A stretch of DNA of 64,000 nt, taken from Actinomycetota bacterium (GTDB taxonomy: Bacteria > Actinomycetota > UBA4738 > JBJMLN01). The translations under genes were made by a program, and so were the position numbers. Positions 16 to 24,202 of this stretch are shown piece after piece. The stretch lies in contig JBJMLN010000135.1 of NCBI GenBank assembly GCA_045805285.1, forward strand, positions 5,656 through 69,655, given 5' to 3'. Position 1 is the first letter of the stretch. Every line of letters starts with the position of its first letter. Under the pieces are notes generated by a model. That model worked only from the letters and a program-made list of their open reading frames with translations, made no database searches and was not told the DNA's origin.

Positions 16-810
16 CTACGCCTCCATGCGGGCGCCGGCGAGCGCGGTCGCGCAAGGGCACGCGCGCTCCTCCGGCAGCGCCGGCACGAGTGTGAACAGC
101 AGATCACGCAGCCGTGCGTTGTTCGCACCGAAGACGCGAACGACGTCCTCGTGCGTTACGGGCGGCGCTCCCTCGACACCGACGTCGTAGTCGGTGATGA
201 GCGAGACGTTCGCGTAGCAGATCTCCAGCTCCCGGGCGAGGAGCGCCTCCGGATATCCGGTCATGTTGATCGTCCGCCACCCGAGACCCGAGAACCACGC
301 CGACTCCGCGCGCGTGGAGAAGCGCGGTCCCTCGATCACGACCATCGTGCCGCCGTCGTGCATCGTGATGCCGAGTTCGCGGCCCTCCTCGAGCGCGACG
401 CTTCGCATCGTCGGGCAGTACGGGTCGGCGAAGGAGATGTGGGTCGTCTCGGGCCCGTCGTAGAAGGTGTGCGGGCGCGTGCGAGTGCGGTCCACGAGCT
501 GGTCGCAGACGACGAAGTCTCCGAGCTCCACGTCAGTCTGCAGCGAACCGGCGGCGCACGGTCCGAGGATCCGCTCCACTCCCAGCTCCTTCATCGCCCA
601 CAGGTTCGCGCGGTACGGGATCCGGTGTGGTGGAAGCTCGTGCTTTCGCCCGTGCCGCGGAAGGAAAGCGACCTCGACGCCACCGACGTCTCCGACGTGC
701 AGCGGGGCGGAGGGATCTCCGTACGGCGTCTCGACGGCGACCTCCTCCACGTCGTCGAGAAACGAGTAGAAGCCGGAGCCTCCGAATATCCCGACGCGGG
801 CGGAGGTCAG
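16..810 (-). CDS. mtnP: S-methyl-5'-thioadenosine phosphorylase (MTAP). The region homologous to the conserved MTAP N-terminus begins at codon VGIFGGSGFY, but no in-frame ATG/GTG/TTG lies upstream. The only candidate start is a CTG at 808-810, which forms a CTGA overlap with the stop codon of the upstream gene.
   Basis: The C-terminal 259 aa of track ORF 16..2574(-) match MTAP motifs: GGSGFY, PYGDPSAP, FLPRHG, YRANLWA, GPRFSTRAES, NMTGYPEA and CYA..TDYD. Confidence 0.8.
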   Translation of the reverse strand: MTSARVGIFGGSGFYSFLDDVEEVAVETPYGDPSAPLHVGDVGGVEVAFLPRHGRKHELPPHRIPYRANLWAMKELGVERILGPCAAGSLQTDVELGDFVVCDQLVDRTRTRPHTFYDGPETTHISFADPYCPTMRSVALEEGRELGITMHDGGTMVVIEGPRFSTRAESAWFSGLGWRTINMTGYPEALLARELEICYANVSLITDYDVGVEGAPPVTHEDVVRVFGANNARLRDLLFTLVPALPEERACPCATALAGARMEA

Positions 811-1265
811 GCCGAACGCTCCTTGGCGCTCCCGGAGGAAGACGAAGGCGAGCTGTCTTTGCTTCCCGAGCCGGAGCTGCCCGAGCCGGAGTTGCCCGAG
901 CCGGAGTTGCCCGAGCCGGAGCTTCCCGAGCCGGAGCTTCCCGAGCCGGAGCTTCCCGAGCCGGAGCTTCCGGAGCCGTCCGAGGAGGACTTCCCGCTGC
1001 CGGAGTCCGACTTCTTCTCGGATGACGACGACTTCTCCGAGCTCGAGCCGTCGCTGCTCTTCTTCGAACCGCCCTCGCCGGAGGACTTCGACCGGTTGTC
1101 GGTCGAGTAGAACCCGGAGCCCTTGAACAGGATGCCCGCGGGATGGAACACCTTCCGCAGCGGTCCGCCGCAGACGCCGCACTCGGTGAGTGGCTCGTCC
1201 GACACCCGCTGGAACACCTCGACGTGCTGGCCGCACTTGGTGCACGCGTACTCGTAGGTAGGCAC
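807..1265 (-). CDS. FmdB-family zinc-ribbon protein (two CxxC pairs) with a GTG start. It carries a ~90-aa Ser/Gly-rich low-complexity C-terminal tail.
   Basis: Track ORF 807..1535(-) contains VPTYEYACTKCGQHVEVFQRVSDEPLTECGVCGGPLRKVFHPAGILFKGSGFYSTD, the FmdB regulatory zinc-ribbon signature. The tail is (SGSGS)n, encoded by 15-bp tandem repeats. Confidence 0.7.
   Translation of the reverse strand: MPTYEYACTKCGQHVEVFQRVSDEPLTECGVCGGPLRKVFHPAGILFKGSGFYSTDNRSKSSGEGGSKKSSDGSSSEKSSSSEKKSDSGSGKSSSDGSGSSGSGSSGSGSSGSGSSGSGNSGSGNSGSGSSGSGSKDSSPSSSSGSAKERSA
861..978. repeat. About eight tandem copies of a 15-bp unit (cccgagccggagntg). The repeat encodes the Ser/Gly tail of the FmdB-like protein on the minus strand.
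   Basis: Direct reading of the sequence: gagctgcccgagccg gagttgcccgagccg ... gagcttccggagccg. Confidence 0.85.
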
Positions 1266-1356
1266 GAATGAGATTGTAGCTACCGTCCCGTGCGTATGGG
1301 CCCGAGAACTCCGGGACGATAGACTTCCCGTCCCCCCACCCGTGAGGGAGCGCACC

Positions 1357-2235
1357 ATGAAGGTCAAGAAGGCCATCGTTCCCGCGGCCGGCCTCGGCAC
1401 CCGATTCCTTCCCGCGACCAAGGCGCAGCCGAAAGAGATGCTCGCGATCGTCGACAAACCGGCGATCCAGTACGTGGTGGAGGAGGCCGTCGGCGTCGGC
1501 ATCAACGACCTCCTGATCATCTCCGGACGCGGCAAGCGAACGATCGAGGACCACTTCGACCGCTCCTTCGAGCTCGAGTACTACCTCGAGAACAAGGGCA
1601 AGTTCGACGAGCTGAAGGAGGTCCGCGAGATCTCCGAGATGGCGTCGATCCATTACATCCGTCAGCGCGATCCGCTCGGCCTCGGGCACGCCGTGCTGAT
1701 CGCAGAGCAGCACGTCGGCAACGAACCGTTCGCGTGTCTCCTCGGCGACGACCTGATCGCGGAGGACACGCCGCTGCTGCAGGAGATGCTCGCCGTCCAC
1801 GAGCGCTACGGAAGAAGCGTGGTCGCCGTCCAGGAGGTCCCCCGCCAGGACATCAACCTCTACGGTTGCATCCAGCCGGAGTGGGCGGAGGACAACCTTG
1901 CGCGCATCGTCTCGATCGTGGAGAAGCCGGAGCCGGACGAGGCGCCGTCGAACCTCGCGGTGATCGGACGCTACGTGCTGACGCCGGAGATCTTCGACGC
2001 GCTCCACCAGATCGACCCCGGCGTCGGCGGAGAGCTCCAGCTCACCGACGCGATCAACGTCCTCGCGCGGGAGCAGGCGGTGTACGCGTACGTGTTCGAG
2101 GGGGGACGCTTCGACATCGGGAACAAGCTCGATTACCTCAAGGCGACCGTGGAGCTCGCACAGCGGCGCGAGGACATGGGCGAAGAGTTCGGGCAGTTCC
2201 TGTCCGACTTCGTCCAGCGCAAACGACTCGTCTAG
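1357..2235 (+). CDS. galU: UTP--glucose-1-phosphate uridylyltransferase.
   Basis: MKVKKAIVPAAGLGTRFLPATKAQPKEMLAIVDKPAIQYVVEEA carries the nucleotidyltransferase G-x-G-T-R motif. The ATG is at 1357 within track ORF 1342..2235. Confidence 0.9.
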   Translation: MKVKKAIVPAAGLGTRFLPATKAQPKEMLAIVDKPAIQYVVEEAVGVGINDLLIISGRGKRTIEDHFDRSFELEYYLENKGKFDELKEVREISEMASIHYIRQRDPLGLGHAVLIAEQHVGNEPFACLLGDDLIAEDTPLLQEMLAVHERYGRSVVAVQEVPRQDINLYGCIQPEWAEDNLARIVSIVEKPEPDEAPSNLAVIGRYVLTPEIFDALHQIDPGVGGELQLTDAINVLAREQAVYAYVFEGGRFDIGNKLDYLKATVELAQRREDMGEEFGQFLSDFVQRKRLV

Positions 2236-18166: not shown

Positions 18167-19051
18167 GTGGCCGATCAGGTCATACGGCCGGCGGGCCTCG
18201 GGATCGATCTGCCCTCGCCCGCGCAGGTCCGCACGCGAGCGCTCGTCAACACCACGCTGTGGAGAGCCTTCCTCGCGTTCGTGTTCCTCGCGCTCTTCGG
18301 TCCGCTCCTGATCCTGCTGCTGTTCTCGTTCAACGACTCCTCGATCCTCGCGTTCCCGCTCGCCGGGTTCACGACGCACTGGTACTCCCTCGCGTGGCAG
18401 GACACGCTGCTGCGACAGTCGCTCGTCAACTCCACGACGGTGGCGCTCGTCGTTACGCCGTTCTGTCTGGTGCTGGGAACGCTAACGGCGTTCGGTCTGA
18501 CCCGGTTCCGCTTCCGCGGCCGTGGAGCCGTCGGCGGCCTGGTCGGCGCACCGCTGATCCTGCCGTGGCTGATCATCGGCATCGCCGCGCTGATGGCGTA
18601 CGGACGGCTCCACGTCGCCTTGAACCTGCGGACGGTGATCGCGACGCAGACGATCTGCACGTTCCCGCTGGTCACCGCCATCATCGCGGCGCAGCTTTTC
18701 CGCTTCGAGCGGGAGCAGGAGGAGGCGGCGATCGATCTCGGCTGCTCGCGTCTCCAGGTGCTGCGCCACATCATCCTGCCGCACATCGCCTCGGCGCTCG
18801 CGGCCTCGGCGATCTTCGCGTTCACATGGTCGTTCAACAACTTCGAGATCAGCTTCTTCACGATCGGGTTCCAGCAGACGTTTCCGATCTGGGTGTACTC
18901 CTCCGTACGGAACCCCGACCACACCGCGGTCGTCAACGCGATCTCCGTGGTGATCTCCGTCGTGCAGGTCGCGCTGATCTACCTCGCGGTGCGGCTCCTT
19001 CGACGCGGGAGCGACGACGAGACCGGCGTCATCGTGGCGGTGGCAGCCTGA
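18167..19051 (+). CDS. ABC transporter permease (PotC/PotB-like).
   Basis: Six transmembrane segments. EAA-like loop AIDLGCSRLQVLRHIILP. GTG start 1 nt after the SBP stop. Confidence 0.8.
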   Translation: MADQVIRPAGLGIDLPSPAQVRTRALVNTTLWRAFLAFVFLALFGPLLILLLFSFNDSSILAFPLAGFTTHWYSLAWQDTLLRQSLVNSTTVALVVTPFCLVLGTLTAFGLTRFRFRGRGAVGGLVGAPLILPWLIIGIAALMAYGRLHVALNLRTVIATQTICTFPLVTAIIAAQLFRFEREQEEAAIDLGCSRLQVLRHIILPHIASALAASAIFAFTWSFNNFEISFFTIGFQQTFPIWVYSSVRNPDHTAVVNAISVVISVVQVALIYLAVRLLRRGSDDETGVIVAVAA

Positions 19052-23648: not shown

Positions 23649-24202
23649 ATCGCGTCAGGAGGCACATCGAGGTCCGGAGGCGCGTCGCGGTCGATCTTCA
23701 CGTCGTCGACCTCGTGAGGGCCGAAAAGAGCACGCGCGCCCGAGTCTCCCGTCAGCGCGAGCGCATCGGGCCAGATCTCTCTCGAGAGGAGCGCCGGACC
23801 GGGCGCGTTCCGGTACCGGAGTCGAACGATCGGTGCGCGGGTCTGGCTGAACCGCTCGACGAGCGCGCGGATCTCCTCCGGATCGACCCCGGGCTGGTCG
23901 GCGAGGAGGACGACAACCCCTTCGCTCGATGGATCGAGTGCTCGGAGGCCAGTCGCGAGCGACGTCGATTGGCCCTGCGCGAAGCGTTCGTTCACCACGA
24001 TGCGCGCGTTCGGGGGGAGCGTGATCGCCGCCTGAACCCGTTCAGCGTCGTGGCCGAGGACGACGACGATCTCGTCGAGTTCCGCCGCCGCAGCTGCGTC
24101 GATCGCGTGTTGGACGAGCGGCTTCCCTTCGAACTCGAAGAGCTGCTTCGTGGAACCGAAGCGTGACGCCGTCCCCGCCGCGAGGACGATCGCGGAGATC
24201 AA
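23645..24202 (-). CDS. mocA: MobA-like nucleotidyltransferase (molybdenum cofactor cytidylyltransferase MocA-like).
   Basis: LISAIVLAAGTASRFGSTKQL matches the GT-A NTP-transferase motif. TTG start with GAAGGA at -5. Forms a TTGA overlap with coxG. Confidence 0.7.
   Translation of the reverse strand: MISAIVLAAGTASRFGSTKQLFEFEGKPLVQHAIDAAAAAELDEIVVVLGHDAERVQAAITLPPNARIVVNERFAQGQSTSLATGLRALDPSSEGVVVLLADQPGVDPEEIRALVERFSQTRAPIVRLRYRNAPGPALLSREIWPDALALTGDSGARALFGPHEVDDVKIDRDAPPDLDVPPDAI

What the first reader, a model, noticed from the sequence alone, without database searches (positions are those of the whole stretch)
790..812. MTAP gene has no canonical start codon; a CTG start sits inside a CTGA stop/start overlap
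The MTAP reading frame must begin upstream of the GGSGFY phosphate loop (VGIFGGSGFY at ~795). Scanning upstream in frame, there is no ATG, GTG or TTG for more than 1.7 kb, which is why the track shows an 852-aa artefact ORF. The only plausible initiator is the CTG at 808-810. Its TG overlaps the TGA stop of the upstream fmdB-like gene, giving the classic NTGA coupling geometry. The alternatives are a genuine non-canonical initiation with translational coupling, or a base-call error that converted ATG/GTG to CTG.
Basis: seen in the sequence. Interest (0 to 1): 0.5.

Follow-up and report, generated by a model that had tools for sequence, protein, structure and literature searches.

The report
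Conserved CTG start codon on MTAP
A methylthioadenosine phosphorylase gene really does begin with the rare start codon CTG, overlapping the stop codon of the gene before it, and the same arrangement recurs in many related uncultured Actinomycetota, so it is a stable natural feature and not a sequencing error.

Summary
The core observation holds. The MTAP gene (minus strand, 810..16) has CTG at 810-808 inside a CTGA overlap with the TGA stop (809-807) of an FmdB zinc-ribbon gene. No usable ATG/GTG/TTG exists. One detail is wrong: in-frame GTGs lie 372-744 nt upstream, inside fmdB, not ">1.7 kb" away.

A base-call error is excluded. The same CTGA occurs in 38 of 163 related loci (30 unique contexts) from independent assemblies, including all relatives at 84-95% identity whose DNA I fetched. 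Several relatives have an in-frame stop 13-23 codons upstream with no canonical start between.

Codons 7-15 (G-[I/V]-F-G-G-S-G-F-Y) keep their amino acids while third positions vary, and dN/dS is 0.12-0.14, so the region after the CTG is translated. NCBI already annotates this protein from the CTG.

At least 7 CTG gains or losses occurred in every bootstrap tree. CTG contexts almost always carry AAGGAG exactly 8 nt upstream.

Best reading: CUG initiation by fMet-tRNA, made workable by a strong Shine-Dalgarno and termination-reinitiation coupling in a probably leaderless fmdB-mtaP operon.

It is a known kind of feature, but an unusually well-replicated natural case. Coupling itself is inferred, not shown.

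The parts
16..810 (-). MTAP (S-methyl-5'-thioadenosine phosphorylase) coding sequence, 264 codons, CTG start 810-808, TAG stop 18-16
   Evidence: Translation. NF005876 376 bits (cutoff 306) and TIGR01694 308 bits. PF01048. Aligns over residues 4-260 to solved MTAPs 1v4n and 2a8y. Identical 264-aa NCBI protein P0001.
808..810 (-). CTG initiation codon of MTAP (inferred to be read by fMet-tRNA)
   Evidence: Sequence. Same codon at the aligned position in 38 of 163 loci. Sister clades carry ATG or GTG at the same position.
807..809 (-). TGA stop codon of the upstream fmdB-like gene, sharing T809 and G808 with the CTG (-4 overlap, CTGA)
   Evidence: the ORF listing 807..1535. Frame translation ...SGSAKERSA*.
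819..824 (-). Shine-Dalgarno-like AAGGAG, 8 nt before the CTG, encoded as Lys-Glu in the FmdB tail
   Evidence: AAGGAG in 25 of 30 unique CTG contexts. A core of at least 5 nt with a 5-10 nt spacer in 28 of 30 (26 at exactly 8), against 16 of 68 for ATG/GTG/TTG contexts.
766..783 (-). Codons for the GGSGFY phosphate-binding loop, which must be translated for a functional enzyme
   Evidence: Invariant amino acids with free synonymous variation among 25 unique CTG-bearing sequences.
748..750 (-). First in-frame canonical start (GTG) downstream of the loop. This is the codon that Prodigal-type callers pick in the relatives, giving truncated 244-aa products.
   Evidence: Truncated JGI/ENA products P0003-P0005 begin VEEVAVETPYG.
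1180..1182 (-). Nearest upstream in-frame canonical codon (GTG), inside fmdB in another frame. Not a plausible start.
   Evidence: In relatives the frame is closed by stops 13-46 codons upstream of the CTG.
807..1265 (-). FmdB-family CxxC_CxxC zinc-ribbon gene, GTG start 1265-1263, with a long Ser/Gly-rich tail. First gene of the pair.
   Evidence: TIGR02605 65 bits (cutoff 31.3). PF09723. MPTYEYxCxxCG start conserved in 80 of 98 upstream ORFs.
1273..1278 (-). -10-like hexamer TACAAT, 7 nt before the fmdB GTG with no SD between. Inferred promoter of a leaderless fmdB-mtaP mRNA.
   Evidence: A TAnnnT hexamer ending 5-9 nt upstream of the fmdB start (the range scanned) in 68 of 80 loci. The strict two-hexamer sigma-70 scan found nothing, so this rests on the conserved -10 element only.

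Best explanation
The C at 810 is real. MTAP translation starts at the CUG (810-808), read by initiator fMet-tRNA as Met, as for the other NUG starts.

Initiation at this intrinsically weak codon is probably made workable by two things:
- A strong Shine-Dalgarno (AAGGAG, 824-819) sits at a fixed 8-nt spacing inside the end of the upstream fmdB gene.
- The 4-nt stop/start overlap (CUGA) means a ribosome finishing FmdB at UGA is already on the start site and can reinitiate (termination-reinitiation coupling).

The pair is probably transcribed as a leaderless mRNA that begins at the fmdB GTG. MTAP output would then be a fixed, low fraction of FmdB translation.

What is shown: the sequence geometry, conservation and recurrence of CTG, coding constraint right after the CTG, purifying selection on the gene, and the association of CTG with an optimal SD.

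What is inferred: that CUG is the codon actually used, that it is read as fMet, that reinitiation rather than free 30S binding delivers the ribosome, and that the mRNA is leaderless.
For: 1. Not an error.
- CTGA lies at the orthologous junction in 38 of 163 loci, 30 unique contexts.
- These come from contigs whose names follow different assembler conventions, such as k127/k141, NODE_, contig_ and JGI Ga.
- All fetched relatives at 84-95% identity have it.

2. No alternative start.
- L096, L003, L005, L009, L045 and L159 have an in-frame stop 13-23 codons upstream of the CTG with no ATG/GTG/TTG in between.

3. Position fixed by homology.
- Sister clades have ATGA or GTGA at the same aligned codon.
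- The NF005876 profile starts 2 residues before it.

4. Translated.
- In 25 unique CTG sequences, codons 7-15 (G-[I/V]-F-G-G-S-G-F-Y) are nearly invariant at the amino-acid level: only I/V at codon 8 and one Y-to-H. Codons such as GGA/GGC/GGG/GGT and TCC/TCG vary freely.
- For codons 2-21, pS is 0.32-0.68 against pN 0.07-0.30.
- Whole-gene dN/dS is 0.12-0.14 in CTG clades against 0.115-0.25 in canonical clades.

5. Stable and recurrent.
- Only 7-9% of comparable four-fold sites are invariant in the window clade, yet the C is kept.
- There are at least 7 (median 9) CTG gains or losses in 100 of 100 bootstrap NJ trees, out of about 35 start-codon changes.
- Genome-wide, switches to CUG were 4 of about 800 start-codon switches (PMC5622118).

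6. Compensation.
- 28 of 30 CTG contexts have a strong SD at a 5-10 nt spacer, against 16 of 68 for the other NTGA contexts. Fisher p = 4e-11, not corrected for phylogeny.

7. Context-specific.
- The four other CTGA junctions flagged in the window's survey of coding-on-both-sides junctions all have a canonical start within 2 codons.

8. De novo CUG initiation is poor elsewhere.
- It gives 1-2% of AUG in E. coli (10.1101/063800).
- It made up 0.03% of selected SD-led starts in M. smegmatis (PMC4633059).
- This argues that the overlap context matters.

9. NCBI annotation already uses the CTG in this genome and in two relatives, L161 and L162.
Against: - There is no direct evidence of the protein N-terminus, of ribosome initiation at the CUG, or of dependence on fmdB translation. 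All organisms are uncultured MAGs.
- The clade-level statistics are not corrected for shared ancestry, and the CTG clades were partly delimited by their state.
- Sampling is biased towards relatives of a CTG-bearing query.
- A strong SD alone could drive de novo 30S initiation at CUG without reinitiation.
- In mycobacteria, the only Actinomycetota tested, CTG with an SD was essentially inactive. If that holds here, expression could be very low.
- No special RNA structure supports the RNA-unfolding form of coupling (z = -0.41).
Confidence: 0.7

Rival explanations
1. Uncoupled CUG initiation. The CUG is the start, but free 30S subunits are recruited by the strong, optimally spaced SD. The overlap with the fmdB stop is incidental.
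For: AAGGAG at 8 nt is near-universal in CTG contexts. There is no inhibitory RNA structure that upstream translation would need to open. L054 has a CTG start behind a GAGGGGG SD with a different upstream gene.
Against: CUG with an SD gives only 1-2% of AUG in E. coli. It was not selected at all in M. smegmatis (0.03%). All 38 CTG cases counted sit in the 4-nt overlap. The one separate candidate, L054, has an upstream stop only 11 nt downstream of its CTG. None of the 55 non-overlapping starts is CTG.
Confidence: 0.2
2. Sequencing or assembly error that converted ATG/GTG to CTG in this window.
For: CTG starts are very rare in annotated genomes. A single-base error would be the simplest explanation for one isolated case.
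Against: The same C is found in 30 unique sequence contexts from many samples, and contig names follow several assembler conventions. Near-identical lineages from three separate JGI metagenomes (L081, L084, L167) share gccaaggagcgttcggcCTGA.
Confidence: 0.01
3. Translation starts elsewhere. Candidates are the downstream GTG 750-748 (a truncated or decaying gene), a near-cognate Ile codon such as ATA 789-787, or the upstream GTG 1182 giving a long N-terminal extension.
For: Prodigal-type callers choose the downstream GTG or ATG in the relatives (244-, 241- and 239-aa products). The frame is open up to 2574 in this window.
Against: - A start at 750 would remove strand beta-1 and the GGSG phosphate loop, yet those codons are under strict purifying selection and the gene is not decaying.
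- The Ile codons are not conserved as potential starts. Codon 8 is GTC in 19 of 25 sequences, and codon 6 is GTC in the window. They lie 23-29 nt from the SD.
- The upstream extension is closed by in-frame stops in many relatives.
Confidence: 0.05
4. An FmdB-MTAP fusion protein made by a programmed -1 ribosomal frameshift just before the TGA, so that no MTAP start codon is needed.
For: The MTAP frame is -1 relative to fmdB at the junction. An SD-like element close to a stop codon is reminiscent of recoding sites (own knowledge of the prfB site).
Against: There is no X XXY YYZ slippery heptamer: the sequences are ...CGT TCG GCC TGA here and ...AAG AGC GCC TGA in the large clade. There is no stimulatory downstream structure. 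Sister species have ordinary ATGA or GTGA starts at the same base. prfB-type shifting is +1, which is the wrong direction.
Confidence: 0.02

Closest known systems
Translational coupling at -4 (NTGA) stop/start overlaps, by termination-reinitiation
   Same: Co-directional genes, a 4-nt overlap of start and TGA stop, and an SD inside the end of the upstream gene. This is the commonest overlap class in prokaryotes (PMC12548453; PMC10666635).
   Different: N is C, which gives a non-canonical CUG start. The two coupling papers read here treat NTG starts generically or as ATG/GTG/TTG and do not mention CTG. Coupling at this locus is inferred, not measured.
Near-cognate (non-AUG/GUG/UUG) bacterial start codons, such as AUU of infC and rare annotated CTG/ATT/ATC/ATA starts
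   Same: One mismatch to the initiator anticodon. Weak intrinsic efficiency: 1-2% of AUG for CUG, AUA, AUC and AUU in E. coli. Occasionally annotated.
   Different: The infC AUU is an autoregulatory sensor of IF3 (own knowledge). No such logic is evident for MTAP. Here the CUG recurs in several separate clades (at least 7 state changes), persists over saturated synonymous divergence, and always sits next to an upstream stop.
Compensatory SD strengthening for weaker start codons (Belinky, Rogozin and Koonin 2017, PMC5622118)
   Same: The weaker start codon is associated with a better-conserved and stronger SD.
   Different: That study excluded CUG starts as too few. It saw only 4 switches to CUG among about 800. 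Here CTG changes are roughly a quarter of all start-codon changes at one junction.
Leaderless mRNAs of Actinomycetota (Shell et al. 2015, PMC4633059)
   Same: The fmdB start is an A/GTG lying 5-9 nt after a conserved TAnnnT -10 element with no SD, as for mycobacterial leaderless genes.
   Different: The transcription start is not mapped here. The second cistron starting at CUG is not a described feature of such operons.

Membership tests
S-methyl-5'-thioadenosine phosphorylase (NCBIfam NF005876 / TIGR01694; Pfam PF01048) | Full-length profile match above the curated cutoff | tested here: met
   NF005876 376.4 bits against 306, residues 3-262 of 264. TIGR01694 308.4 against 274.85. PF01048 147.5 bits.
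S-methyl-5'-thioadenosine phosphorylase (NCBIfam NF005876 / TIGR01694; Pfam PF01048) | N-terminal beta-strand plus GGSG phosphate-binding loop present in the product | tested here: met
   VGIFGGSGFY at residues 6-15 if translation starts at the CTG. Aligns to ASIGIIGGSGLY of the solved MTAPs 1v4n and 2a8y.
S-methyl-5'-thioadenosine phosphorylase (NCBIfam NF005876 / TIGR01694; Pfam PF01048) | Phosphorolysis of methylthioadenosine | not testable with these tools
   Needs an enzyme assay.
Non-canonical (CUG) bacterial initiation codon | No canonical in-frame start that could yield the complete conserved protein | tested here: met
   In the window, the nearest canonical codons are GTG 750 (after the loop) and GTG 1182 (inside fmdB). 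In six relatives, in-frame stops 13-23 codons upstream leave no canonical start.
Non-canonical (CUG) bacterial initiation codon | Codon conserved among orthologs, and aligned with canonical starts of other orthologs | tested here: met
   38 of 163 loci have CTG. ATG or GTG sits at the same aligned codon in sister clades.
Non-canonical (CUG) bacterial initiation codon | Coding constraint begins immediately downstream of the codon | tested here: met
   amino acids conserved with synonymous variation from codon 2 onward, and pN < pS.
Non-canonical (CUG) bacterial initiation codon | N-terminal Met at that codon shown by proteomics or initiation profiling | not testable with these tools
   Uncultured MAGs. 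No proteomic or Ribo-seq data were available.
Translationally coupled gene pair (termination-reinitiation, -4 overlap) | Co-directional genes with start and stop overlapping as NTGA | tested here: met
   C810-T809-G808-A807. An NTGA overlap occurs in 107 of 163 orthologous loci.
Translationally coupled gene pair (termination-reinitiation, -4 overlap) | Downstream translation depends on translation of the upstream gene | not testable with these tools
   Needs reporter constructs with the fmdB start or stop mutated.
FmdB-family CxxC_CxxC zinc-ribbon protein (TIGR02605 / PF09723), the upstream partner | Profile match above the cutoff with two CxxC pairs | tested here: met
   TIGR02605 65.2 bits against 31.3. 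PF09723 56.3 bits. Sequence reads VPTYEYACTKCG...ECGVCGG.
Programmed -1 ribosomal frameshift site (considered, not adopted) | Slippery heptamer X XXY YYZ at the shift site | tested here: not met
   The sequences before the stop are CGT TCG GCC TGA and AAG AGC GCC TGA. No heptamer is present and none is conserved.
Programmed -1 ribosomal frameshift site (considered, not adopted) | Stable stimulatory structure downstream | tested here: not met
   Fold of 870-750: -46.1 kcal/mol, z = -0.41 against shuffles.
Leaderless actinobacterial mRNA (for the fmdB-mtaP operon) | -10 hexamer TAnnnT a few nt upstream of an A/GTG start, with no SD | tested here: met
   TACAAT 1278-1273, a 7-nt spacer, then GTG 1265. 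The same arrangement occurs in 68 of 80 loci, counting hexamers that end 5-9 nt upstream of the start.
Leaderless actinobacterial mRNA (for the fmdB-mtaP operon) | Transcription start mapped at the first base of the start codon | not testable with these tools
   Needs 5'-end mapping.

The most novel reading that the evidence does not exclude
At a tightly coupled NUGA junction with a strong, optimally spaced Shine-Dalgarno, the identity of the first base of the start codon becomes nearly neutral between G and C. CUG is then an evolutionarily stable and repeatedly evolved start codon. It may even be favoured, because it makes MTAP synthesis strictly dependent on, and sub-stoichiometric to, translation of the leaderless upstream fmdB gene. 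The fmdB-mtaP junction of uncultured Actinomycetota would be a natural, many-times-replicated experiment showing that termination-reinitiation relaxes start-codon selection.
Probability: 0.4. Interest if true: 0.6.

Novelty: new member of a known kind. Interest (0 to 1): 0.4.

Why it matters
**Practical.** Prodigal-type gene callers truncate this enzyme by 20-25 residues in the CTG lineages, which removes its phosphate-binding loop. Functional and structural inference from those truncated entries would be wrong.

**Conceptual.** It is debated how post-termination ribosomes reinitiate at overlapping start codons, and how stringent start-codon selection is in that mode. This junction offers ATGA, GTGA, CTGA and TTGA variants of the same gene pair, already sorted by evolution. 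The CTG variants are kept only where the SD is strong and 8 nt away. That yields a directly testable prediction: CUG works when coupled and fails when uncoupled. It also provides ready-made natural sequences for reporter experiments.

CUG starts and NTGA coupling are both known, and NCBI already annotates this start. It is therefore an instructive case, not a new principle.

Tried and rejected
- **Genome-wide CTG usage.** I built a codon-usage frame classifier from 37 long ORFs of the window. I used it to survey every NTGA junction with coding signal on both sides. Four other CTGA junctions were found, at 19048, 22435, 57421 and 52932. All have a canonical start within 2 codons (CTGATG twice, CTGAGGATG, GTGCTGA). 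It gave no second convincing CTG-only junction with an SD. The classifier missed the MTAP junction in the window itself, because the low-complexity FmdB tail scores poorly.
- **RNA structure at the junction.** The fold is no better than shuffles, z = -0.41.
- **Two-hexamer sigma-70 promoter scan of 1-1500.** It found nothing. Only the -10 element is conserved.
- **Frameshift fusion.** Rejected, because there is no slippery site.
- **The window's own contig.** Looking it up through P0001 failed, as there is no exact-product record.
- **Literature on bacterial CTG starts.** Three searches found no described case of a conserved CTG start in an NTGA overlap. A fourth search was swamped by generic terms.
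- **P0018.** At 84% identity with an ATG start, it turned out to sit in a different, non-overlapping upstream context on a 920-nt contig. It is therefore not a clean recent CTG-to-ATG switch.
Full report
**1. What is in the sequence**

On the minus strand the frame ...GLTSARVGIFGGSGFYSFLDDVEEV... runs to a TAG at 18-16.
- Its product from L(810-808) is 264 residues.
- It is an S-methyl-5'-thioadenosine phosphorylase. NF005876 scores 376 bits against a cutoff of 306, TIGR01694 scores 308 against 275, and PF01048 also matches.
- Residues 4-260 align to solved MTAPs such as 1v4n and 2a8y. Those structures carry 7-11 residues ahead of the equivalent of ARVGIFGGSG.

The upstream ORF is an FmdB-family zinc-ribbon gene (TIGR02605 at 65 bits).
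- It has a long Ser/Gly tail and ends ...SAKERSA* with TGA at 809-807.
- The junction therefore reads C810-T809-G808-A807.
- AAGGAG sits at 824-819, 8 nt before the CTG.
- No ATG/GTG/TTG lies between the CTG and the GGSGFY loop (783-766).
- The next canonical in-frame codon downstream is GTG 750-748.

The claim of no canonical codon for more than 1.7 kb upstream is not.
- In-frame GTGs occur at 1182, 1236, 1245 and 1554.
- The first three lie inside fmdB (1265-807) in another frame; 1554 lies beyond it.
- The 852-aa ORF simply starts at the most upstream candidate.

**2. Error or real**

The best protein hit, P0001, is a 264-aa NCBI entry that is 100% identical and begins MTSARVG. NCBI's pipeline has therefore already placed the start on this CTG.

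Close relatives called by JGI or ENA pipelines are truncated to 244, 241 or 239 residues, starting at VEEVAV..., MAVETPYG... or VETPYG.... That is what a caller limited to ATG/GTG/TTG produces when the true start is non-canonical.

I fetched the DNA of relatives at 84-95% identity: L081, L084, L161-L165 and L167. All read ...AAGGAG-N(5-8)-CTGA at the junction.

I then classified 163 loci from the species-representative genome collection, the metagenome collection and these look-ups.

| Junction type | CTG | GTG | ATG | TTG |
|---|---|---|---|---|
| NTGA overlap with the upstream stop | 38 | 38 | 27 | 4 |
| Non-overlapping start | 0 | 12 | 41 | 2 |

- One further locus, L054, has a CTG near a different upstream stop and was left unclassified.
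- The 38 CTG loci give 30 unique sequence contexts.
- They come from contigs whose names follow several assembler conventions. That these reflect different sequencing technologies is my inference from the names.
- In L096, L003, L005, L009, L045 and L159 the MTAP frame is closed by a stop 13-23 codons upstream of the CTG, with no canonical start in between.

A base-call error is excluded.

**3. Is the region after the CTG translated**

Among 25 unique CTG-bearing sequences with the same N-terminal length:
- Codons 7-15 (G-[I/V]-F-G-G-S-G-F-Y) are nearly invariant at the amino-acid level; only codon 8 varies (I/V) and one sequence has H for Y. Third positions vary freely, for example GGA/GGC/GGG/GGT and TCC/TCG.
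- For codons 2-21, pairwise pS is 0.32-0.68 against pN 0.07-0.30.

Whole-gene dN/dS is 0.12-0.14 in the two large CTG clades. It is 0.115-0.25 in neighbouring clades with canonical starts. The gene is therefore not decaying, and translation cannot begin at the downstream GTG.

The Ile codons near the loop are not conserved as possible near-cognate starts. Codon 8 is GTC in 19 of 25 sequences, and codon 6 is GTC in the window.

**4. Evolutionary pattern**

- On a neighbour-joining tree of MTAP proteins, the CTG state falls in several separate clades, interleaved with ATGA and GTGA clades.
- In 100 of 100 bootstrap trees at least 7 (median 9) gains or losses of CTG are needed, out of about 35 start-codon changes in all. 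Shuffled labels need about 31.
- For comparison, a genome-wide reconstruction found only 4 switches to CUG among roughly 800 start-codon switches (PMC5622118).
- Within the window's clade, only 7-9% of four-fold degenerate sites are invariant, yet the C is retained. The figure is 17-26% in the largest CTG clade. There is a caveat: the clades were partly delimited by their state.
- The variable base is the third position of the last fmdB codon, mostly GCC Ala or TCG Ser, so it is synonymous for FmdB.
- Relative to the third-position usage of such codons in these genes (C 42%, G 50%, A 4%, T 4%), A is about 6-fold enriched at the junction. C and G are about equally represented, both at roughly 0.75 times expectation.
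- By this crude measure, which is not corrected for phylogeny, CTG is tolerated about as well as GTG at this junction.

**5. What accompanies CTG**

- 28 of 30 unique CTG contexts carry an SD core of at least 5 nt (AGGAG or GGAGG) with a 5-10 nt spacer. In 26 the spacer is exactly 8 nt.
- The corresponding figure for ATG/GTG/TTG overlap contexts is 16 of 68. Fisher p = 4e-11, not corrected for shared ancestry.
- Predicted SD/anti-SD pairing energy is uniform in the CTG class (-8.5 with sd 0.6 kcal/mol) and much more variable in the others.
- The junction shows no unusual RNA structure, z = -0.41.
- In the window, the four other CTGA junctions flagged as having coding sequence on both sides all have a canonical start within two codons.
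- A noisy survey of the GC-rich related loci gave no second convincing case.

CTG use is therefore specific to this junction and is not a habit of the genome.

**6. Operon context**

- The fmdB start (MPTYEYxCxxCG, ATG or GTG) is preceded by a TAnnnT hexamer ending 5-9 nt upstream, the range I scanned, with no SD in between. This holds in 68 of 80 loci.
- In the window the elements are TACAAT 1278-1273 and GTG 1265-1263.
- This is the signature of a leaderless actinobacterial mRNA (PMC4633059). The inference rests on sequence only.
- Synteny is conserved: moeA and galU are divergent from fmdB-mtaP.

**7. Mechanism**

The best-supported reading has four parts:
- CUG is decoded by the initiator tRNA, like the other NUG starts.
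- The strong, fixed-distance SD holds the ribosome at the site.
- Ribosomes terminating fmdB at the overlapping UGA reinitiate there.
- MTAP output is therefore tied to FmdB translation.

Two outside results make the overlap context look important. De novo CUG initiation gives only 1-2% of AUG in E. coli (10.1101/063800). It made up 0.03% of selected SD-led starts in M. smegmatis.

All 38 CTG starts's classification lie in the 4-nt overlap. None of the 55 non-overlapping starts is CTG. The one separate candidate, L054, has its upstream stop only 11 nt downstream of the CTG.

Functional coupling, fMet decoding and the expression level are all inferred. An uncoupled, SD-driven CUG start remains a live rival, at about 0.2.

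**8. Comparison with known systems, and verdict**

NTGA coupling is the commonest overlap class in prokaryotes. CUG is a known weak near-cognate start and is occasionally annotated. SD compensation for weak starts has been described.

This locus belongs to those known kinds, and the start is already in NCBI's annotation. What is new is the comparative picture:
- a core metabolic gene whose CUG start recurs in several clades;
- persistence of that start over saturated synonymous divergence;
- a near-obligatory optimal SD and stop overlap alongside it.

I found no such case in the two coupling papers I read or in the literature searches.

It is moderately interesting as a natural test bed for start-codon stringency during reinitiation, and as a systematic gene-calling pitfall.

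Noticed in passing
window 861-978 (minus-strand fmdB tail): A 15-nt tandem repeat, 7.9 copies at 95% match, encodes (G-S-G-S-S/N)n in the FmdB C-terminal tail. FmdB length varies from 89 to 152 aa among relatives, mostly through this low-complexity tail. Only the last residues...KE-x-x-A/S*, are conserved, and these carry the MTAP Shine-Dalgarno.
   Followed up: partly
window 1263-1278 (minus): TACAAT lies 7 nt before the fmdB GTG with no SD. A TAnnnT hexamer ending 5-9 nt upstream of the fmdB start is present in 68 of 80 related loci. This suggests a leaderless fmdB-mtaP transcript, divergent from galU (ORF listed at 1342-2235 on the plus strand).
   Followed up: partly
L054:1000-1180 (Thermoleophilia MAG JACVRM010000162.1): This MTAP also seems to need a CTG start. 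There is no canonical codon between an in-frame stop 28 codons upstream and the GGSG loop. Here the upstream gene is not fmdB, and its TGA lies 11 nt downstream of the CTG. A GAGGGGG SD is present.
   Followed up: partly
window 19048, 57421, 22435 (plus) and 52932 (minus): Other CTGA junctions are ordinary. Two are TGATG (-1) overlaps, one has an ATG two codons downstream, and one is a GTGCTGA (-7) overlap. TTGA overlaps at 24202 and 16814 (minus) appear to use TTG starts.
   Followed up: yes
window 31-54 (minus), MTAP C-terminus: The C-terminal motif ...EERACPCATAL aligns with the Cys-x-Cys region (ERKCSCCQAL) of the Sulfolobus tokodaii MTAP structure 1v4n. This is an archaeal or thermophile-type feature sitting in a soil actinobacterial enzyme.
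   Followed up: no
protein hits P0003-P0021, P0024, P0034, P0037, P0038: Public JGI and ENA gene calls for the CTG lineages are systematically truncated by 20-25 residues and lack the phosphate loop. NCBI entries for the same lineages (P0001, P0002, P0006, P0015) are full length. DNA confirms the CTG for P0006 and P0015 (L161, L162).
   Followed up: yes
L166 (JGI Ga0498937_0385157): An MTAP 84% identical to the query has an ordinary non-overlapping ATG start and a different upstream sequence on a 920-nt contig. It is either a rearranged locus or an assembly chimera.
   Followed up: no
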